A stretch of 25,705 bases of DNA from Planctomycetota bacterium (GCA_044355055.1 JBIKYW010000001.1:1-25705); one strand, 5' to 3'; shown: positions 4,568 to 21,268, counted from the first letter of the stretch. A program made the numbers and translations. The notes: generated by a model not told the origin, from the letters alone.

Positions 4568-5955
4568 GCCAGCTCTCCGAAGCGGACGAGGCACAGCATC
4601 GCCAAGATGGCGAGCATCGCCGCAGCGATGGCGAGTCGTCTGGGAACCGCGAGTTCAGACGGAAGGCGCTTCGCTTCGACGACGATCAACTGCAATTCTG
4701 CCACTCTCGAGCAGAGGTAGGCGATCAAGGCGCCCAGAGCTCCGTGCAACGGGATCGTGATCACTCCGACGGCCAACATGACGACGGCCGCGCGCTGATA
4801 GGCCCGCCGTGTCGTCGCGAAGTCGCCCTGCGCGCGCTGCCACGGCGTGATGAGGAATCCGAACGTGTGAACAAAGACGCCGACCAGCATCAGAACGAAG
4901 AGCGGACGGCTGGCCACGAAGGCAGGACCGAGAAGCTGTCCGAGCAGCACATCGTCGAATGCGAGCAGCCCGAGCAAGCCGATGAAATAAGCGCATACGA
5001 CGAGACTGGCGAGCTGTACGAAGCGGCGTGCAGCGTGCAGCTTGCCGTGCATGGCGATCTGAGTGGCCAGCGTTGGGTAGAGCATTGCGGCGAGGGCCGA
5101 ACTCACGACATGCACGCGCGTCGCGATGTCGTAGGCGCCGCAGTACATGCCGAGTTCTTCTGCCGTCGTCGTGCGTTCCAGCAACACTCGGTCGATCGAG
5201 ACGATCGCGCTCGACGCCAGCGTGAAGCCGAGGAGGTCGATGACAGCGCTGCGATAGCGCTCGAGTTCCGGCGAAGCCCTCAGTGTGCTCCAGCCCGTGA
5301 GACGGCCCCACAGCGGGCCCGTCGACGGCTGTGGCGCGTCCTCGCGGGGCAGCTTGCTTGCGAGCCAGTGATAGGACAACCAAACGATCAGTGCGGCCGC
5401 GACGAAGGGAAGCGCCCAAGTGAGCGGGCCCGCGTGGAAGAGCGAGAGTGCTGCGACTCCGACGAACGCGCCTGCCCAGGCGAAGTTGCGGAGTGCGGTC
5501 ACGGTTCCAGCTCGCCCGGCTACGGCAATCCGCGCGTAGTTGCGGGAGCCGAGACCATGGAGCAGGGTGACGAGCGCCAGCGCGGCCGCTGCGATCGGAT
5601 GGAGCAAGAACGGTCCCACGAGGAGCGCGAGTCCGACGAGCAAGACCGTGGTGAAGCGCGCCAGCGCGTCGAGGTCCTCCCGCCGCGACGTGCCGTGTGA
5701 TTGCTCGTGGATCAGGAGCTGGCGCGCAACGTCCTGATAGGTCACAACCCCCAGCAGGGTCACATAGAGCGAGAACTCGCCGTAGGCGCCCGGACCCAGC
5801 TCTCGACCGAGGATCGGCAGCGCACCCAGACCCGCTGCGGCGAGCGCGGCTTGGCTCGCCAACACCTGTCCCGTTCCCAGCGCCAGCATCGAACGCAGGC
5901 TGCGCGGCTGCGCGGGAGCCGGTCCGGCAGGCAGGGGATGCGGAGAAGCGCTCAT
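4564..5955 (-). CDS. Polysaccharide flippase (Wzx/MOP superfamily), 463 aa
   Basis: C-terminal part of track ORF 4564..6552, start reassigned to ATG 5955. Motifs LPILGRELGPGAYGEF, IDRVLL...EELGMYCGAY, LYPTLA, IPLHGALGA, and many TM segments. Confidence 0.85.
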   Translation of the reverse strand: MSASPHPLPAGPAPAQPRSLRSMLALGTGQVLASQAALAAAGLGALPILGRELGPGAYGEFSLYVTLLGVVTYQDVARQLLIHEQSHGTSRREDLDALARFTTVLLVGLALLVGPFLLHPIAAAALALVTLLHGLGSRNYARIAVAGRAGTVTALRNFAWAGAFVGVAALSLFHAGPLTWALPFVAAALIVWLSYHWLASKLPREDAPQPSTGPLWGRLTGWSTLRASPELERYRSAVIDLLGFTLASSAIVSIDRVLLERTTTAEELGMYCGAYDIATRVHVVSSALAAMLYPTLATQIAMHGKLHAARRFVQLASLVVCAYFIGLLGLLAFDDVLLGQLLGPAFVASRPLFVLMLVGVFVHTFGFLITPWQRAQGDFATTRRAYQRAAVVMLAVGVITIPLHGALGALIAYLCSRVAELQLIVVEAKRLPSELAVPRRLAIAAAMLAILAMLCLVRFGELA

Positions 5956-15063: not shown

Positions 15064-15372
15064 CAGCGAGAGGATCCCGTTGCGCGTGCTGAGACCTGTG
15101 GCAAGAGACGGCGGCAGAGGTTCACGCCCGACACAACACCTCGCTCCGGCCAGAGTTCCGGCTTTCCCGGAAAGGCGCGCCTGCGCCGCCGGTCCGAGGT
15201 GGCATCCTCGAGCGCTCCCCGCCCCAAGTCATGTTGACCGGATCGCAGGCACTCCTCGCCCCGACCGCAGGATCCATGCAATCGTGCGGGCGGTGCAAAT
15301 CGCGCCGGCGCTCGACCGGCGGCGGCTGCGCACGCACGCTCGGTCGGCGCCTCGCAACGGCTTTCTGTCGCG

Positions 15373-18300
15373 TCACTTAGGAGGGTGAAGTGGTGAAGCA
15401 GAAAGGCGCAGAGCCCTGGAGGGGCGGAGCCCGAGGTAGGAGTCCCGGAACTCCGGCGTGGAGTTGTCGCGGTACGCCGAGCGCGCGAGCGAGGCGGCGT
15501 TGAGGAAGCTGACGCCGCGGGACACGCGGAAGGAGGAGCCGGACCATGGCGACAAGGGATCCTTGCCGACCCGCTTGCCATAGAATCCCGAGTCGTAGCC
15601 GTCCAAGCACCACTCCCAAACGTTGCCCGCCACTTCGTGCAGCCCGAAACCATTTCCGGGGTAGCTGGGGTTGCCCACGACGCAGTGCACGACGCTGCCA
15701 TCCTCCAGATCGGGCCAGTCGGCAATATCTGGCCAAGTTGCGCCCGCCTTCTTCGCCGTCTGGTCAGCCAAGTTCACCTTGCCCCGCAGGCTCTCGCGCT
15801 CAGGCCCCGTCCACCAAGGCGTCGACGTACCGCCGCGCGCCCCACACTCCCACTGCGCCTCGCTCGGCAGCGACAGGCCCAAGCTAGCCAGCAGTTCAAA
15901 GCACATCGGCCAGCTCACCTGCTCAACCGGATGCTGTAGCGACGGAGCTAATCCGCCCGGCGGTTTGTAGTAACTCGGGTTGGTCGCCGCGATCCGTTGC
16001 CACTGGCCCTGCGTCATCTCGTACTTCGAAAGGAAGTACGGGCTCAGCTCCACCTCGTGCACCGGGCCTTCGTCGTTCGAGGCGGCGGGGTCGTGGTTCT
16101 GCGCGCCCGGCTTGTTCTGCGCGCCCATCCAGAACTTCCCGCCAGGGATCAGCACGAACACCAAGCCCGTCTCCTCGGTCAGCACGAGCTTGCCGTCCGC
16201 GCCGCGCACAGCCGGCTCGCCCGTCTGCACGTGCGCGAACTCCCACAACTGCGAGACCGGGTCCATCCCGATTGGCAGCAAGCCAAGCTGCGGCAGGATC
16301 TCCAGTCCGCCGTACTTCGGCGAAGCCTTGATCGCGGCGATCGCCTCATCCCACAGGCGCTTTGCCTCAGGTCCGTCCACGCTGCGCTCGCCGATCGTTT
16401 GCGCGAACTCATAGCGCTTGGCCACGCCCCAGCCGAAGGGCTCTGCCAGCACGTCGTTCATCAGCCCCGTCTTCGGGTCGCCCAGCTTCTCCAGGTCGCC
16501 GACCAGCTTCGACAGCGAACGGTTCCACCACTCCTGCTCCGGATAGTCGAACTCGTAGGTGCGACGCTCGTCCACCTGCGTCGTCAGTGCGGCGACTTCC
16601 TCCGCCAGCTTGTCGCGCTCCTCGCGGCGTTTCGATGCCTCGTCCCCGCGCCAGGCGGCGACCGCCTTCTCCAGGTCGGCGGCCGACTCCTTCAGCGCGT
16701 CGCCACCCGGTTCCGACAGCGCCGTGCGCACCTCCGACAACGCTGCGTCGAAGCGGCCCACCCGGAACAGCGCCCATGCCAGCGTGTCGCGGATGCCAGA
16801 ACGTTCCTCCTCGCTCGCCGCGTCCACTGCGCGACGCGCCAGCAAGAGCGCGCGCACTTCCTCGCCGTAGACCGGCTTTGCCGGATCCACCAGTGGCCAA
16901 GCGAGCGAGTTCAGCGCGTCGGCGTCCGTAGGCAGCGACTCCTGCGCCAGCTCCGCTTCGACGCTGGCCTCGCTCGGCCAAGGCTCGTCGCCCAACATCC
17001 GCGAGCGCCACAACAGCTCCGCCTCTTTCGTTTGAAGCTCCGCGTACTTCGGATGCGACTCGCGCTCCGCCTGGATCTCGGCCTCGCTCAGCGGCTTCGC
17101 CTGTTGCCGCAACTCCGCGAGCTTCGCCTTGTGCTCTGCGAGGCTCGGGCGCTTCTTGAGGCCCTTCGCTTCGTGCGCCGCACGCCCGTCGATCAACTCG
17201 TTCGCGCGCCGCAGCCAGTCTTCATACGCCGGGATAATCTCCGGATGCGCCGGCCACAGCTTCGCCGCCTCCGCCACCAAGTCGTCGTGATCCTTCTGCG
17301 CCGACAGCGACAGCACGTCGTTCGCTTTTTGCGTCGCCTCGTCGCGCGCGAGCTGCGCGGCGGTAGCGTTGCGTTGCGCTTCCTCGGCGTTGCGTTGCGC
17401 TTCCTCGGCGTTCTTGTTCGCCAGCACCAAGTTGTCCTTCGCCGCGATCTCACCCGCCTCGGCGCGCTGGGTCTGCGCCGCAAGGTCGACGTTCGACTTC
17501 TCCAGCTCGTTCGCCGTCCGCACCTGCTGCACCAAGAGCCCCGAGATCACCGCCAGCGCGATCGTTCCCACCGCCGCCGCCGAGCTCGGGCCGGGATTGC
17601 GCCGCGCCCACTTCACGACCCGCACCAGCGTGCTCGGCGGCCGCGCGTGGATCGGCTCGTCCGCCAAGTGCCGCCGCAGGTCCGCCGCGAATTCCGCCAT
17701 CGTCGGGTAGCGGCGATCGGGATCCTTCTCCAGCGCCTTGCCGCAGATGATCGACAGCTCGCGCGGGCACTGCGAGCGCACCTTCGACGGCTCCGGCGGC
17801 TCGAAGAACAGGATCTTCTGGCTGATCTGGTGCGTCGTGTCGCCCTCGAACGGGCGGCGCAGGCTGAGCAGCTCGTAGAGCACCACGCCCAGGCTGAAGA
17901 TGTCCGTGCGGTGGTCGAGCCCGATGCGCTTCGCCGTCACCTGCTCGGGGCTCATGTACGCGTATGTCCCCGCGAACTCGCCCGTCACCGAGAGGAACGA
18001 GTCGTCGCTCACCCGCGCGAGGCCGAAGTCCGTGAGCTTCGGAGTGTCGTCGCGCGCGATCAGGATGTTCTGCGGCTTGATGTCGCGGTGGATCACGCCC
18101 GCTTGGTGCGCGGCTTCGAGGCCCTCGGCGAGGGCGGCCACCAGCTCCGCCGCGCGCCGGTAGTAGCCCTCGGGCGTGCGATCCTCGGCGCGCAGCTCGT
18201 CGAGGAAGTCCTTGAGCGTCCACGAGCCTTCGACCAGCTCTTGCGCGATCCACGCCGGATCGCCAGAGCCGTTGAAGGCCAGCGTGCGCACGATGCACGG

Positions 18301-18771
18301 ATGCGAGAGGCGGCCGCCCGCGCGCGCCTCGCGCTCGAAGCGCTCCAGCGAGCGCGCGTCCACGCGGTCCGGACGCACGAACTTGAGCGCGACCGGTCGG
18401 CGCAGCTTCTCGTCGTACGCCTCCCACACCTGCCCCATGCCGCCCTCGGCGAGGAAGCGGCGCAGCACGAAGTGCGCCACGCGCTGGCCCTCGCTGAACT
18501 TGCCGCTGGAGCCGCTCGGATCCGCACGGCGATCGCGGTCCGTGCTGCGGCCGAAGAAGCCCTTGCCTTGGAGCGCGCGCTTCGAGCGCAGCCAGCCTTC
18601 GAGCAGCGCACGCACGTGTGCTCGCAGCGTTGCATCGGCGAGCTCGCCCTGCGTCGGAGCCCAAGCATCGAACGACTCGAGCGCTCCGTCCGGCTGCTCT
18701 TCCAAGAAGCGCGCCAGCCAGCTCTGCGTCCGATCGTGCGAGTCTTGCGGATCTTGCGGGCTCTTGGCCAT
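15373..18771 (-). CDS. Hanks-type Ser/Thr protein kinase - coiled-coil/TPR-like - FGE-sulfatase (SUMF1, C-type lectin fold) multidomain protein, 1132 aa
   Basis: Kinase: LAEGGMGQVW, VALK, HRDIKPQNIL, DFGLAR, GTYAYMSPEQ, DIFSLGVVLYE. One TM helix (AVGTIALAVISGLLV). TPR-like: ALNSLAW...DTLAWALFRVGRFDAAL. FGE domain: IPGGKFWMG, SKYEMTQGQW, HPVEQVSW, LPSEAQWE, NGFGLHEVAGNVWEWC, RVSRG..F...RSAYR. Confidence 0.93.
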   Translation of the reverse strand: MAKSPQDPQDSHDRTQSWLARFLEEQPDGALESFDAWAPTQGELADATLRAHVRALLEGWLRSKRALQGKGFFGRSTDRDRRADPSGSSGKFSEGQRVAHFVLRRFLAEGGMGQVWEAYDEKLRRPVALKFVRPDRVDARSLERFEREARAGGRLSHPCIVRTLAFNGSGDPAWIAQELVEGSWTLKDFLDELRAEDRTPEGYYRRAAELVAALAEGLEAAHQAGVIHRDIKPQNILIARDDTPKLTDFGLARVSDDSFLSVTGEFAGTYAYMSPEQVTAKRIGLDHRTDIFSLGVVLYELLSLRRPFEGDTTHQISQKILFFEPPEPSKVRSQCPRELSIICGKALEKDPDRRYPTMAEFAADLRRHLADEPIHARPPSTLVRVVKWARRNPGPSSAAAVGTIALAVISGLLVQQVRTANELEKSNVDLAAQTQRAEAGEIAAKDNLVLANKNAEEAQRNAEEAQRNATAAQLARDEATQKANDVLSLSAQKDHDDLVAEAAKLWPAHPEIIPAYEDWLRRANELIDGRAAHEAKGLKKRPSLAEHKAKLAELRQQAKPLSEAEIQAERESHPKYAELQTKEAELLWRSRMLGDEPWPSEASVEAELAQESLPTDADALNSLAWPLVDPAKPVYGEEVRALLLARRAVDAASEEERSGIRDTLAWALFRVGRFDAALSEVRTALSEPGGDALKESAADLEKAVAAWRGDEASKRREERDKLAEEVAALTTQVDERRTYEFDYPEQEWWNRSLSKLVGDLEKLGDPKTGLMNDVLAEPFGWGVAKRYEFAQTIGERSVDGPEAKRLWDEAIAAIKASPKYGGLEILPQLGLLPIGMDPVSQLWEFAHVQTGEPAVRGADGKLVLTEETGLVFVLIPGGKFWMGAQNKPGAQNHDPAASNDEGPVHEVELSPYFLSKYEMTQGQWQRIAATNPSYYKPPGGLAPSLQHPVEQVSWPMCFELLASLGLSLPSEAQWECGARGGTSTPWWTGPERESLRGKVNLADQTAKKAGATWPDIADWPDLEDGSVVHCVVGNPSYPGNGFGLHEVAGNVWEWCLDGYDSGFYGKRVGKDPLSPWSGSSFRVSRGVSFLNAASLARSAYRDNSTPEFRDSYLGLRPSRALRLSASPLHPPK
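17366..17412. repeat. Exact 21-bp tandem repeat (2.2 copies) within the kinase gene, encoding NAEEAQR-NAEEAQR-NA
   Basis: GCGTTGCGTTGCGCTTCCTCG at 17366-17386 and 17387-17407, plus GCGTT at 17408-17412. Confidence 0.9.
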
Positions 18772-18888
18772 GGGGAGAATCGCGCGGGTCAGGTGGGGGA
18801 AGCCCCGACTCTCCGCGCGACGGAAGTCTCACCACCATCCCCCGAGCGCGTCAACGCCCACCCCATCCTTGTGCTCTTGCGGCCGGAT

Positions 18889-18949
18889 CCCCGCGCCCCG
18901 CCGCGCTCACGCGTCGACGGCGGGCACGTAGTCCTTGGCGCCGGGGTCG
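18889..18949. repeat. 61-bp direct repeat, copy 1 (displaced 3' end of the radical SAM gene; att-like)
   Basis: CCCCGCGCCCCGCCGCGCTCACGCGTCGACGGCGGGCACGTAGTCCTTGGCGCCGGGGTCG, identical to 19682-19742. The flanking bases differ on both sides. Confidence 0.95.
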
Positions 18950-18992
18950 CCGCAGCGATCTTGAGTTTCAGTCTCGCAGTCCAGCGCTCGGG

Positions 18993-18998
18993 TACCAT
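18993..18998 (+). promoter_or_regulatory. Possible -10 element (TACCAT) for a leaderless or near-leaderless TA transcript
   Basis: TAnnnT hexamer ends 9 nt before the DUF433 ATG (19008). No Shine-Dalgarno sequence is visible and no convincing -35. Confidence 0.25.
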
Positions 18999-19007
18999 GA
19001 CTCCATT

Positions 19008-19247
19008 ATGGTCGCGACCGAGCTCCTGCGGCGTATCACGCACGACCCCAACGTCATGGGAGGTCGGCCCTGCCTTCGCGGCATGCGCGTCGCGGTGGGG
19101 ACGGTGGTCGGTCTACTTGGTGCGGGCCGCACCATGGAAGAAGTTCTCGCCGCGTATCCGTACCTCGAGCGTGAGGACATCTTTGCAGCGTTGACGTTCG
19201 CCGCTTGGCGTTCGCAGGAACTCGAAGTGCCTCTCCAGGCTTCGTGA
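19008..19247 (+). CDS. DUF433-family antitoxin, 79 aa
   Basis: C-terminal part of track ORF 18618..19247, start reassigned to ATG 19008. Sequence RITHDPNVMGGRPCLRGMRVAVGTVVGLLGAGRTMEEVLAAYPYLEREDIFAALTFA is a typical DUF433 pattern. Confidence 0.93.
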   Translation: MVATELLRRITHDPNVMGGRPCLRGMRVAVGTVVGLLGAGRTMEEVLAAYPYLEREDIFAALTFAAWRSQELEVPLQAS

Positions 19248-19618
19248 AGGTCCTGATCGACATGAATCTGACCCCAGAGTGGGTCGGGTTTCTTGCGAGT
19301 CACTCCATAGAGGCCGTTCACTGGTCCAAGATCGGGGCGGCCACGGCGGCCGACGCGGTGCTGCTGGCGTAGGCTCGTGAGCACGGTCACGTGATCCTGA
19401 CCCATGACCTCGACTTTGGAGTAGTGCTCGCGCTCGCAGGAATGTCCGGTCCGAGCGTCCTGCAGATTCGGACTGACGACGTCATGCCCGCTGCGATTGG
19501 CGAGCGCGTCGTCGCCGTCCTGCGTGAGTTTGCGGTCGAGTTCGAACTAGGCTCCTTGGCGACGCTCGACTGTGCGAGCCATCGACTTCGATGGCTCCCG
19601 ATTCGAACCCGCTCTTGA
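19244..19618 (+). pseudogene. DUF5615/PIN-like (VapC45-type) toxin interrupted by an in-frame TAG at codon 43
   Basis: GTG start overlaps the antitoxin stop (GTGA). Translation MKVLIDMNLTPEWVGFLASHSIEAVHWSKIGAATAADAVLLA*AREHGHVILTHDLDFGVVLALAGMSGPSVLQIRTDD...LRWLPIRTRS. TAG at 19370-19372. Confidence 0.88.
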
Positions 19619-19681
19619 GCGCCTCGGACCCGACTCGCCCGGACACGCACGCCGCACTCGTGTGGTTTCGCTACATGGCTA

Positions 19682-19742
19682 CCCCGCGCCCCGCCGCGCT
19701 CACGCGTCGACGGCGGGCACGTAGTCCTTGGCGCCGGGGTCG
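19682..19742. repeat. 61-bp direct repeat, copy 2 (functional 3' end of the radical SAM gene plus 18 nt downstream)
   Basis: Covers the codons for DPGAKDYVPAVDA, the stop (19700-19702) and 18 nt beyond it. Identical to 18889-18949. Confidence 0.95.
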
Positions 19743-21268
19743 AGCTGGCCGGTGGCGCGGACGTAGAGGTCGAAGAGCTTTTGTTCGAGCGGGAAGCCGT
19801 AGCGGTGCTTCCTGAGGCGCCAGCCGGCGATCTGCGCGAGCGTCTCGCGCATCCATGCGGGGCCTTCGTGGATCTTGCGGTCGTAGATGGCGCTCGTGTT
19901 GTTGTAGAGGCGCCACGTCTCGCGCACGTCGTCGGGGAGCGGCGTGTTGTGCGCGTTGTACTTGTACTCGAAGCACTTGCCCCACTCGTGGAAGTCCTTC
20001 GGCGGGACGTAGCCGTCCTTCACGGCGGTGGCGAAGTCTTCGGTGCCGGGGATCGGGCGGAAGGGATAGACCTCGGAGCCCGCGGTGGGGAAGAGGTACT
20101 TCACTCCGGCGGCGACGCGCAGGGTCTCGCGCATCGATTCCGGCGTCTCGCCGGGATACCCGATGATCCAGAACGTGCCGGGCGTGATGCCGCGGCGGTA
20201 GAGCTCGCCGATCGCGTAGGGGATGTTGGAGAGCTTGATTTCCTTCTTGATGCGCTCCTGCATCGCGGCGGTGCCCGTCTCGGCGCCGAGCCACAAGAGG
20301 TGGCAGCGCGAGTCGCGCAGGAGGTCGAGCGTCTCTTGCTTGTAGCGCGCGATGGTCTCGATCTCGATCGTGCCGTTCCAATGGATCGGCACCTTCAAGT
20401 CGATCAGCTTCTCGCAGAAGGCCTTGGTGCGCTTCTCCGCGACGCCCCAGTTGGCGTCTTGGAAGCGCAGCACGTCGAACTTGAAGCGCTGCTGCAGCTC
20501 CGCGATTTCCTCGGCGAGCGCCTCGCCGGGGATCGCCTTGTAGCGCTTGCCGGTGACGAGCGGCGAGCAGCAGAACGTGCACGGCTCGGGGCAGCCGAAG
20601 CTGGAGAAGTGGCTGAAGGCGCGCGGCGGCCGCTCCGGCGTCCACTTGCCCGGCAGCGGGAAGCGGTGGCGCACCTTCATGCGCGTGGGCTTGGTCTGGA
20701 GCTCGGCGTAGCGCTCGTATTCGAGCAGGTGCCACGGCACCTTCCCGAACTTGTCGAAGCCGACGACCTCGCGGTGGTCGGTGTACACGACGCGCCCGTC
20801 GCGCCACAGCGCGAGACCCGGCACGCTGTCGAGCGGCTCGCCCGCGTCGAGCGCGCGCACGACCTCGTCGAAGGTGAGCTCGCCCTGACCGATGCCGACG
20901 GCGTCCGCGATCCCGTGCTCGAAGTACATCTCGGGGATGACGCTCGGGAACCAGCCGCCCCAGATGATCGGGAGCTTGGGGAAGCGCTCGCGCACGGCCT
21001 TGGCGACGACGTAGCCGTCGTAGACCTGATAGCCGAGGATGCACGAGCTCGCGAAGCACAGCGCGCCGTCGCACGCTTCGAGCACCTTGTCGAGGTACTT
21101 GGGCTCGATCATCGCGTCGATCAGCACCACCTCGAAGCCGTTGGCCACGGGGCCGATCGCGATCTGCAAGAGCTCGAGCGGCAAGAGGTCGGCGCTGAAG
21201 ACCTCCCCACGGGTCGGGTCGGCCCGGTGGGGGAGGAACAGGACGACCTTGCGGCGGCGCTGGATCAT
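19700..21268 (-). CDS. Cobalamin (B12)-binding radical SAM protein (class B methyltransferase-like), 522 aa
   Basis: N-terminal B12 domain (LPLELLQIA...GFEVVLID, IIWGGWFPS, GQGELTF), CxxxCxxC motif GCPEPCTFC, FQDANW, LGAETG, IIGYPGETPE, PIPGTE. Confidence 0.92.
   Translation of the reverse strand: MIQRRRKVVLFLPHRADPTRGEVFSADLLPLELLQIAIGPVANGFEVVLIDAMIEPKYLDKVLEACDGALCFASSCILGYQVYDGYVVAKAVRERFPKLPIIWGGWFPSVIPEMYFEHGIADAVGIGQGELTFDEVVRALDAGEPLDSVPGLALWRDGRVVYTDHREVVGFDKFGKVPWHLLEYERYAELQTKPTRMKVRHRFPLPGKWTPERPPRAFSHFSSFGCPEPCTFCCSPLVTGKRYKAIPGEALAEEIAELQQRFKFDVLRFQDANWGVAEKRTKAFCEKLIDLKVPIHWNGTIEIETIARYKQETLDLLRDSRCHLLWLGAETGTAAMQERIKKEIKLSNIPYAIGELYRRGITPGTFWIIGYPGETPESMRETLRVAAGVKYLFPTAGSEVYPFRPIPGTEDFATAVKDGYVPPKDFHEWGKCFEYKYNAHNTPLPDDVRETWRLYNNTSAIYDRKIHEGPAWMRETLAQIAGWRLRKHRYGFPLEQKLFDLYVRATGQLDPGAKDYVPAVDA

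What the first reader, a model, noticed from the sequence alone, without database searches (positions are those of the whole stretch)
18889..19742. Recombinase-free mini-island: TA cassette integrated at the 3' end of a radical SAM gene with a 61-bp att-like duplication
Seen: a perfect 61-bp direct repeat (18889-18949 and 19682-19742) brackets 732 bp holding only a DUF433 antitoxin and a DUF5615/PIN-like toxin. The repeat is the last 13 codons, the stop and 18 downstream nt of the B12 radical SAM gene, so one copy completes the gene and the other is an orphan tail in front of the kinase gene. Established: this 'gene restored, displaced tail at the far end' layout is how tyrosine-integrase elements insert into tRNA genes and some protein-gene 3' ends. 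Inference: this is either a very small non-autonomous element (793-bp excised circle) mobilised in trans, or the collapsed relic of a larger island that uses a radical SAM gene as attB. The repeat can also fold back on itself (CCCGCCG/CGGCGGG inner stem, CCCCG/CGGGG outer arms), which may matter for recombination, although GC-rich DNA pairs easily.
Basis: partly seen in the sequence, partly recalled or inferred. Interest (0 to 1): 0.8.

Follow-up and report, generated by a model that had tools for sequence, protein, structure and literature searches.

The report
Toxin-antitoxin cassette with duplicated gene tail
A 732-bp toxin-antitoxin gene pair sits behind a radical-SAM gene between two identical 61-bp copies of that gene's end, and lake metagenomes hold both this form and a form lacking exactly these 793 bp, so it is a real come-and-go cassette without a recombinase gene of its own, of a kind that the papers I found describe only for restriction-modification genes.

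Summary
A perfect 61-nt direct repeat (18889-18949 and 19682-19742) brackets a DUF433/DUF5615 (VapBC-type) pair. One copy completes the B12-radical-SAM gene. The other is an orphan tail in front of the kinase gene.

It is not an assembly artefact. At least ten independent JGI/ENA assemblies carry the same structure. At least five others, with the identical rSAM protein, carry the empty site, exactly 793 bp shorter with one repeat copy.

The integrase/att reading is not supported:
- No recombinase gene lies on any rSAM-locus contig in the 8 genomes of the genus.
- The repeat does not fold better than shuffled sequence.
- Related cassettes sit at the ends of different genes, with duplications of 30-389 nt that have different boundaries and no shared end motifs.

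The best fit is "insertion with long target duplication", described for restriction-modification genes, here with a toxin-antitoxin cargo. About 28% of the DUF433 loci sampled in this order show it, against 7% of the ParE and PIN loci. Host homologous recombination between the repeats is the likely route of loss and re-entry; this is inferred.

The window's toxin carries a TGG>TAG stop. The same rSAM tail also flanks a kinase-DGR block in relatives. Earlier notes of this scan report the same signature on other DNA.

The parts
18889..18949 (.). Orphan copy (R-left) of the rSAM 3' end: 40 nt of coding sequence, the stop codon and 18 nt downstream. It adjoins the kinase upstream region.
   Evidence: it is the single copy left in the empty alleles
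18950..19007 (+). 5' flank of the cassette (58 nt). It carries the GGGTACCATGAC-CCAT motif that also precedes the DUF433 gene of G004, so it is the probable promoter/operator region.
   Evidence: sequence comparison; the function is inferred
19008..19247 (+). Antitoxin gene, DUF433/COG2442 (79 aa), intact.
   Evidence: the exact protein occurs in at least 8 other assemblies
19244..19618 (+). Toxin gene, DUF5615/PIN_10 (124 codons), with a 4-nt overlap with the antitoxin gene. It is broken by an in-frame TAG.
19370..19372 (+). TAG stop at the codon that reads TGG (Trp) in G002, G005 and all sister-lineage contigs.
   Evidence: (19371 A>G in runs X2 and X8)
19619..19681 (+). 3' flank of the cassette (63 nt).
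19682..19742 (.). Repeat copy (R-right) that forms the true 3' end of the rSAM gene.
19700..21268 (-). B12-binding radical SAM gene (522 aa), the target whose tail is duplicated.
18772..18888 (-). Kinase upstream region. In the empty alleles it follows the single repeat copy directly, leaving 135 nt between the rSAM stop and the kinase start.
15373..18771 (-). Ser/Thr kinase fused to an FGE-sulfatase/CLec domain. It is the neighbour on the orphan-tail side and a DGR target, with its variable region at 15413-15541.

Best explanation
The 793-bp unit (the 732-bp VapBC-type DUF433/DUF5615 cassette plus one 61-bp repeat copy) is an 'insertion with long target duplication' at the 3' end of the radical-SAM gene.

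Shown:
- The cassette carries only the toxin-antitoxin pair with short flanks.
- The target's last 61 bp stand on both sides, so the gene stays whole.
- The natural population holds the occupied allele and a precisely empty allele.
- The same R-T-R unit, with the same repeat boundaries, stands next to two different left-hand neighbours.
- The toxin of this lineage is knocked out by a nonsense codon.

Inferred:
- No dedicated recombinase is involved.
- The first insertion came from recombination anchored in rSAM homology. The candidates are one-sided homologous plus illegitimate joining, or single-crossover entry of a circularised fragment that carried the gene tail.
- Afterwards the two 61-bp copies serve as substrate for host RecA-type recombination. 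That removes the unit precisely (empty site plus a 793-bp circle). It also lets DNA carrying cassette plus repeat re-enter any genome that has the rSAM tail.
- The rSAM tail thus acts as portable homology. The locus behaves as a small array of cassettes (the TA pair, the kinase-DGR block) separated by tail copies.
For: - Structure and uniqueness of the repeat.
- Occupied allele in independent assemblies: L106, L107, L109, L111 and the eight contigs L214-L221, three of them from the same records.
- Empty allele, exactly 793 nt shorter with one repeat copy: L108, L110, L112, L113, L115 and L229, L231, L233.
- In three of four lake metagenomes the cassette's depth is about half that of its flanks, and about 0.7 in the fourth.
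- Empty site with direct rSAM-kinase adjacency in species G007.
- Same unit and same repeat edge beside the kinase upstream region (window, L224, L226, L227) or beside a 5'-truncated second DUF433 gene (G002:C2, L222).
- No recombinase nearby, in the own genome beyond two tyrosine-recombinase hits, or on any rSAM-locus contig of the genus.
- Related DUF433 cassettes are bracketed by duplications of 30-389 nt. These are the ends of different host genes: topoisomerase VI-A, MetH, a DSHCT helicase, a response regulator, a FabI-like reductase and RadA.
- Frequency: 15 of 53 DUF433 loci against 4 of 60 ParE/PIN loci, Fisher p = 0.0025. About 0.7% of the own genome lies inside any such repeat pair.
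- Empty sites for the MetH example in G170 and G132.
- Cassette ends share no motif.
- Published precedent for restriction-modification genes, with repeats spanning the start or stop of neighbouring genes: PMC2853133.
Against: - The mechanism of the first insertion is not observed. Neither the 793-bp circle nor any recombination intermediate was seen.
- Precise excision and re-entry at a fixed repeat are equally what a site-specific recombinase acting in trans would give.
- The genome is an 85%-complete MAG, so a recombinase gene could be unassembled.
- Occupied and empty haplotypes differ by 6-11 SNPs in the 856 nt next to the repeat and by their DGR variable region. The direction of change, gain or loss, is therefore not settled.
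- The enrichment of DUF433 over classical PIN loci alone is only marginal (p = 0.06), and related genomes are not independent samples.
- A purely generic homologous-recombination route does not by itself explain why DUF433 pairs show the signature more often than ParE pairs.
Confidence: 0.6

Rival explanations
1. A non-autonomous element is mobilised in trans by a site-specific recombinase (a tyrosine integrase, or the host Xer pair) that recognises a core inside the 61-bp repeat. This is the first reader's att-like model, comparable to cis-mobilisable elements left behind by integrative elements.
For: - Precise occupied and empty alleles.
- Identical unit boundaries in two genomic backgrounds.
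- The rSAM tail is reused by several cargos.
- The gene is restored at one end, as with integrase islands in the 3' ends of genes (general knowledge).
Against: - No integrase lies in the window or on any rSAM-locus contig of 8 genus genomes.
- The own genome shows only two tyrosine-recombinase hits and no serine recombinase.
- The repeat occurs nowhere else in the genome.
- G005's homologous cassette at the same gene has other repeat boundaries.
- Sister cassettes use unrelated genes, with duplications of 30-389 nt.
- Cassette ends share no motif.
- The repeat has no significant structure.
Confidence: 0.15
2. The cassette drives its own insertion. The PIN-like DUF5615 nuclease, guided by the DNA-binding DUF433 protein, would cause breaks at the ends of genes, and repair of those breaks would copy the cassette in with a long duplication. 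This parallels the double-strand-break idea proposed for restriction-modification units.
For: - DUF433/DUF5615 loci carry the signature more often than ParE loci (15/53 against 1/30, p = 0.007).
- The signature occurs across phyla: Chloroflexi and Verrucomicrobiota.
- Furuta et al. suggest DNA breakage as the property common to restriction-modification units that insert this way (PMC2853133).
Against: - PIN-COG2442 pairs behave as ordinary VapBC toxin-antitoxin systems where tested (VapBC10, PMC3834315).
- Non-TA cargo shows the same scars in this genome: an AAA_14/DUF4143 ATPase gene and an unknown ORF. So does the kinase-DGR block in relatives.
- The difference from classical PIN loci is not significant (p = 0.06).
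- There are no conserved cassette ends.
Confidence: 0.1
3. The cassette is the remnant edge of a larger island that once spanned the TA pair, the kinase and a DGR between rSAM-tail copies. The 61-bp repeat would be what later deletions left behind.
For: - In G002:C66 and L223 a 160-nt orphan rSAM tail follows kinase-HRDC-bAvd-RT-TR and runs into the cassette.
- In G007 a tail fragment of about 355 nt lies behind the same block.
- The window has the kinase with its variable region but no RT.
Against: - In this population the segregating unit is exactly the cassette plus one repeat. The kinase is present in both alleles.
- Phasing across the 178-nt and 732-nt repeats is ambiguous in k=141 assemblies, so the larger arrangement is not secure.
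- No island-type genes (integrase, transfer genes) were seen.
Confidence: 0.1
4. The repeat is an assembly artefact of a fragmented metagenome-assembled genome.
For: The window is one contig of a 587-contig MAG, and related MAGs break their contigs inside the rSAM tail.
Against: - At least ten independent assemblies from JGI and ENA reproduce R-T-R, including k=141 contigs that span the 61-nt repeat.
- In run X1 the two copies differ at one base (G at 18895, C at 19688), and each copy joins its own flank.
- G002's copies differ at two bases.
Confidence: 0.01

Closest known systems
Insertion with long target duplication of restriction-modification gene units (Nobusato et al. 2000, Gene 259:99; Furuta et al. 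2010, NAR, PMC2853133)
   Same: - A small addiction-type gene unit with no transposase or integrase.
- It is flanked by direct repeats longer than 30 bp that are a single copy at the empty site of a related genome.
- The repeats are long and variable in length, and often span the stop or start of the neighbouring gene.
- Flanking repeats are more frequent than at other genes.
   Different: - The cargo is a type II toxin-antitoxin pair (PIN-COG2442), not a restriction-modification system.
- Here both alleles are seen inside one natural population.
- The same unit is seen in two backgrounds.
- The same gene tail separates several cassettes.
- I found no paper reporting this for toxin-antitoxin pairs. 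That search covers open-access texts only.
Integrase-borne islands and prophages in the 3' ends of genes, and their integrase-less derivatives (e14 in icd of E. coli; cis-mobilisable elements of streptococcal ICEs). Recalled from general knowledge, not read here.
   Same: The gene is restored at one junction, a displaced tail sits at the other, and a precise empty site exists.
   Different: - There is no integrase here or at this site in relatives.
- Duplication boundaries differ between related cassettes.
- The host genes are unrelated.
- There is no common core.
VapBC10 of Synechocystis and the PIN-COG2442 class (Ning et al. 2013, PMC3834315; Makarova et al. 2009, PMC2701414)
   Same: A DUF433/COG2442 DNA-binding antitoxin gene lies upstream of, and overlaps, a PIN-like toxin gene. 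The class is abundant and mobile.
   Different: The window's toxin has a premature stop. The mode of insertion was not addressed in those papers.
Integron gene cassettes and attC arrays
   Same: Small, mostly single-function cassettes, often toxin-antitoxin pairs, are separated by repeated sites. Arrays exist: L093 has four copies of a gene head between three cassettes.
   Different: The repeated site is a piece of a host gene, not an attC. There is no integron integrase and no GTTRRRY core.
Minimal mobile elements of Neisseria (recalled from general knowledge)
   Same: A spot between conserved genes holds different cassettes in different strains, exchanged by homologous recombination without element-encoded enzymes.
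   Different: Those elements do not duplicate the end of the flanking gene.

Membership tests
Insertion with long target duplication (criteria of Furuta et al. 2010) | Direct repeats longer than 30 bp flank the insert | tested here: met
   61/61 nt
Insertion with long target duplication (criteria of Furuta et al. 2010) | A related genome has the empty site with a single copy of the repeat | tested here: met
   L108, L110, L112, L113, L115, L229, L231 and L233 hold one copy and are 793 nt shorter. G007:C396 shows direct rSAM-kinase adjacency.
Insertion with long target duplication (criteria of Furuta et al. 2010) | The insert is shorter than 20 kb and holds no transposase, integrase or other mobile element | tested here: met
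   The 732 nt hold only DUF433 and DUF5615.
Insertion with long target duplication (criteria of Furuta et al. 2010) | The repeat is not a multicopy genomic repeat | tested here: met
   Two copies in 3.53 Mb, both at this locus.
Insertion with long target duplication (criteria of Furuta et al. 2010) | The cargo is a restriction-modification unit, as originally described | tested here: not met
   The cargo is a toxin-antitoxin pair. This is why I file it as a variant rather than a member.
Site-specific (tyrosine/serine recombinase) integrative element or its non-autonomous derivative | A recombinase gene in the element, or in a related element at the same site | tested here: not met
   None in the window and none on the rSAM-locus contigs of 8 genus genomes.
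Site-specific (tyrosine/serine recombinase) integrative element or its non-autonomous derivative | Related elements share a common att core with fixed boundaries | tested here: not met
   G005's repeat starts at the stop codon and reaches about 57-60 nt into the gene, against -40..+18 here. Other cassettes use other genes.
Site-specific (tyrosine/serine recombinase) integrative element or its non-autonomous derivative | Recombinase-dependent excision to a circle | not testable with these tools
   Only Logan k=31 contigs were available for read-level work. No circle junction can be told apart from the chromosomal junctions.
VapBC-type PIN-COG2442 toxin-antitoxin system | A DUF433/COG2442 antitoxin gene directly upstream of a PIN-like toxin gene | tested here: met
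   PF04255 at E 6e-23; PF18480 at E 3e-17 and PF18478 at E 2e-6; the two genes overlap in GTGA.
VapBC-type PIN-COG2442 toxin-antitoxin system | An intact toxin reading frame | tested here: not met
   TAG at 19370-19372. The frame is intact (124 aa) in the sister lineage.
VapBC-type PIN-COG2442 toxin-antitoxin system | Toxicity that the antitoxin neutralises | not testable with these tools
   Shown for VapBC10 only (PMC3834315).
Integron cassette | An attC site with inverse-core and core motifs, and an integron integrase | tested here: not met
   The repeat is rSAM coding sequence plus 18 nt. It has no GTTRRRY (read), does not fold better than shuffles, and no integrase is nearby.

The most novel reading that the evidence does not exclude
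Ends of conserved genes serve as portable homology for arrays of cassettes that need no recombinase of their own. In this lineage a toxin-antitoxin pair and a roughly 6-kb kinase-DGR block, each bounded by copies of the rSAM tail, would be cut out, re-inserted and re-ordered by host recombination alone, much as an integron works but without integrase or attC. DUF433/DUF5615 pairs would be the specialised, most frequent riders of this route across phyla, and possibly its drivers.
Probability: 0.25. Interest if true: 0.8.

Novelty: new variant of a known kind. Interest (0 to 1): 0.58.

Why it matters
How chromosomal toxin-antitoxin pairs spread without any mobility gene is an old open point. This locus gives a clean natural experiment:
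- occupied and precisely empty alleles occur in the same lake populations;
- the same unit stands in two genomic backgrounds;
- the toxin is disarmed in one lineage and intact in the sister lineage;
- the signature is shared by about a quarter of related cassettes, at unrelated genes and in other phyla.

This extends 'insertion with long target duplication' from restriction-modification units to toxin-antitoxin pairs, and apparently to a DGR-kinase block. It makes the route testable: recA dependence, circle formation, and whether the toxin affects retention. It also warns annotators that short orphan gene tails next to small accessory genes are insertion scars, not pseudogenes of independent origin.

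Tried and rejected
1. An exact-pattern scan of JGI metagenome contigs with 51 nt of the repeat found nothing. The exact-protein look-ups worked instead.

2. Read-level test. Only Logan k=31 contigs were available. They cannot bridge a 61-nt repeat, so they gave depth ratios and copy-specific SNPs but no phasing and no circle test.

3. Hairpin in the repeat: not better than shuffles. No terminator-like or promoter-like site was found by the simple scans.

4. I first read the mostly synonymous differences between intact and orphan tails (G005: 3 synonymous, 1 not; L066: 6 synonymous, 2 not) as proof that the tails came from two lineages. I withdrew this. In the MetH case the two copies are each other's closest relatives (96%), so purifying selection on the intact copy after an in-place duplication explains the pattern equally well.

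5. I predicted that empty alleles would occur only where the toxin is broken, because an intact toxin would penalise loss. This was not borne out. Empty alleles also occur with the sister lineage's rSAM protein (L229, L231, L233).

6. Conserved cassette termini or inverted repeats: none found.

7. The cassette family is not tied to rSAM. The nearest antitoxin relatives in other genera (72-77% aa) lie in other contexts.

8. I tried to derive the window's kinase-to-oxidase junction from the DGR-bearing arrangement. No informative homology was found.

Full report
**1. The observation**

The window is a whole 25.7-kb contig of a 587-contig, 85%-complete MAG from lake water. A perfect 61-nt direct repeat, R, lies at 18889-18949 and 19682-19742. 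These are its only two copies in the genome. The 732 nt between them occur once.

R comprises 18 nt downstream of the stop, the stop codon and the last 40 coding nt of a B12-binding radical-SAM gene (19700-21268, minus strand). The right copy completes that gene. The left copy is an orphan, 117 nt upstream of a Ser/Thr-kinase/FGE-sulfatase gene (15373-18771, minus strand).

The interior, T, holds a DUF433 antitoxin gene (19008-19247) and a DUF5615/PIN_10 toxin gene (19244-19618). They overlap by 4 nt and have flanks of 58 and 63 nt. The toxin frame is cut by TAG at 19370-19372. G002, G005 and every sister-lineage contig read TGG there.

The fold-back proposed for R is no better than shuffled sequence (z = -0.5 and -0.3).

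**2. Real, and polymorphic**

Exact-protein look-ups in public assemblies gave the decisive result.

With the identical rSAM protein, four contigs from four samples carry R-T-R-kinase at 99.9% identity, with two perfect R copies (L106, L107, L109, L111). Five others carry rSAM followed after 135 nt by the kinase, with one R copy and exactly 793 nt less (L108, L110, L112, L113, L115). The samples come from JGI and from ENA MEGAHIT k141 assemblies.

The exact antitoxin protein occurs on at least eight contigs, all in the same context and all with the split toxin.

Contigs built at k=141 span a 61-nt repeat. In run X1 the two copies differ at one base, and each joins its own flank. An assembly artefact is therefore excluded.

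In four lake metagenomes the cassette's depth is 0.45-0.72 of its flanks, as expected if both alleles coexist.

The empty haplotypes form their own lineage. They share 6-11 SNPs in the 856 nt beside R and carry another DGR variable region. The rSAM side is identical by construction of the look-up.

The sister lineage has antitoxin variant P0005 and an intact 124-aa toxin. Empty alleles occur with the sister lineage's rSAM protein too (L229, L231, L233). Presence or absence of the cassette is thus not confined to the amber-toxin lineage, and the direction of change (gain or loss) is not settled. Species G002 shares R-T-R with the same junctions and comparable divergence (98.1% in T against 97.9-99.1% in the flanks). 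This favours old presence with repeated precise loss.

**3. The same unit in two backgrounds**

In G002:C2 and L222 the orphan R abuts a 5'-truncated second DUF433 gene plus an AbiEii-like nucleotidyltransferase, then the UDP-glucose dehydrogenase and epimerase genes. It does not abut the kinase upstream region. Homology to the window ends within 1-2 nt of R's outer edge.

Both junctions are shorter than k=141 and are therefore read-supported. A unit of cassette plus one R that enters by recombination within R gives exactly this result. Replacement through two flanking homologies would not.

**4. The site is a hot spot, and the tail is reused**

Among the 8 species of the genus:
- G000 and G002 have R-T-R.
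- G005 has a homologous pair (87% and 78% aa, 75% nt). Its own orphan tail starts at the stop codon and reaches about 57-60 nt into the gene, so its boundaries differ.
- G004 and G001 carry very different DUF433 pairs (40% and 34% aa) right after the stop, without a duplication.
- G007 has the empty rSAM-kinase adjacency.
- G003 and G006 have neither.

In G002:C66, L223 and G007:C434 the kinase is followed by HRDC, bAvd, a reverse transcriptase and a template repeat. An orphan rSAM 3' fragment of 160 nt or about 355 nt comes next. The kinase-DGR block is thus also bounded by rSAM-tail copies.

Phasing across the 178-nt and 732-nt repeats is ambiguous at k=141. The exact order in the sister lineage (cassette behind the full gene, behind the orphan tail, or both) remains open.

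**4a. No recombinase**

None lies in the window. The own genome shows two Phage_integrase hits and no resolvase. None of the integrase hits in the 8 genus genomes lies on a contig that holds the rSAM locus.

**5. A general signature of this cassette family**

I searched loci of about 3.2 kb, each centred on a DUF433 gene, against themselves.
- In the family sample, 9 of 26 loci have a direct repeat of 52-279 nt bracketing the gene.
- In an independent Pfam-based sample of the order, 8 of 30 do, with repeats of 30-389 nt.
- Among the nearest relatives in other phyla, 3 of 17 do: Chloroflexi and two Verrucomicrobiota.

Every repeat of 50 nt or more found in these loci brackets the DUF433 gene.

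The repeats are the ends of different neighbouring genes: topoisomerase VI-A, MetH, a DSHCT helicase, a response regulator, a FabI-like reductase, RadA and others. Often they start at the stop codon.

One Verrucomicrobiota locus, L093, has four copies of the first 100 nt or so of a gene. They separate three cassettes: the TA pair, an unknown ORF and an IS200-like gene.

For the MetH case, relatives hold the empty site (G170, G132) and the cassette without the orphan tail (G159, G169).

Controls:
- ParE loci: 1 of 30.
- Classical PIN loci: 3 of 30.
- About 0.7% of the own genome lies inside any such repeat pair. Two of those pairs are again accessory genes next to a duplicated gene tail.
- Pooled: 15/53 against 4/60, Fisher p = 0.0025. 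Against PIN alone, p = 0.06.

Related genomes are not independent, so these figures are indicative. Cassette ends share no motif, and the nearest relatives of this cassette lie in other contexts.

**6. Interpretation**

The features are:
- variable length and boundaries of the duplications;
- unrelated targets;
- no recombinase and no end motifs;
- precise empty sites;
- reuse of the same tail by several cassettes.

Together these match 'insertion with long target duplication', described by Kobayashi's group for restriction-modification units. In that work the flanking repeats are over-represented and often span a neighbouring gene's start or stop (PMC2853133). They do not match an integrase att site.

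The cargo belongs to the PIN-COG2442 VapBC class. That class was predicted by Makarova et al. (PMC2701414) and shown to be a working toxin-antitoxin system for VapBC10 (PMC3834315). I found no paper reporting this insertion mode for toxin-antitoxin pairs.

Earlier notes of this scan describe the same signature for DUF433/DUF5615 pairs at atpG, at a tRNA gene and at other gene ends in other genomes. They agree with this reading but are not independent evidence.

Shown: the anatomy, the two alleles, the two backgrounds, the broken toxin and the enrichment.

Inferred: the first insertion used rSAM homology on one side with illegitimate joining or single-crossover entry of a circle. The 61-bp copies now allow RecA-type precise loss and re-entry.

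**7. What did not hold**

- The synonymous-difference argument for a foreign origin of one tail copy.
- The expectation that an intact toxin prevents loss.
- The hairpin.

**8. Verdict**

This is a real, well-documented, polymorphic toxin-antitoxin cassette with no recombinase gene and a 61-bp target duplication. It is a new variant (TA cargo, a cassette-array-like locus) of a known kind of insertion. The integrase reading is not supported.

Noticed in passing
window 15413-15541 (kinase C-terminus); L035:1687-3812; L034:364-1889; L223:4789-6914: The kinase is a DGR target. Relatives carry HRDC, bAvd, a reverse transcriptase and a template repeat downstream of it. In the 124-nt core, 17 of 18 TR-VR mismatches lie at TR adenines. 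The own genome has the variable region but no RT, Avd or TR. Occupied and empty haplotypes carry different variable regions, with 15 differences.
   Followed up: partly
window 19370-19372: An amber codon replaces Trp in the toxin while the antitoxin stays intact. It is fixed in all contigs with this antitoxin variant. The sister variant has the intact 124-aa toxin.
   Followed up: yes
window 17366-17407: A perfect 21-nt tandem duplication inside the kinase's coiled-coil region (family D10). The surrounding 17449-18032 region is the most polymorphic part of the gene among otherwise identical contigs.
   Followed up: no
G000:C316 (L086:1-1504) and G000:C350 (L083:780-2642): Two more accessory genes in the same genome sit next to a duplicated gene tail. 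One is an AAA_14/DUF4143 ATPase gene beside the tricorn-protease tail (42-nt repeat). The other is an unknown 461-aa ORF beside an AMP-binding enzyme tail (134-nt repeat).
   Followed up: partly
L093:2330-5213 (Verrucomicrobiota MAG): Four copies of the first 100 nt or so of a gene, each starting with ATG, separate three cassettes downstream of a PNKP gene: DUF433/DUF5615, an unknown ORF and an IS200-like Y1 transposase gene.
   Followed up: partly
L024:5097-6394 (G002:C2); L222:5739-6525: A second DUF433 gene, cut at its 5' end exactly at the outer edge of the orphan repeat, is followed by an AbiEii-like nucleotidyltransferase gene.
   Followed up: partly
L225:1996-4188: One metagenome contig fuses the first 147 codons of the kinase to an FtsX-like permease, with the junction at window position 18331. 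This is either a rearrangement or a chimeric contig.
   Followed up: no
G000:C91 (L087:1-127 and 4669-4795): A 4.8-kb contig carrying multicopper oxidase and SCO1/cytochrome c genes begins and ends with the same 127 nt. This may mark a circle, a tandem repeat or an assembly end effect.
   Followed up: no
window 15064-15372: The 309-nt spacer between the kinase and the amine-oxidase gene marks where relatives carry the DGR genes and an orphan rSAM tail. No trace of either is left here.
   Followed up: partly
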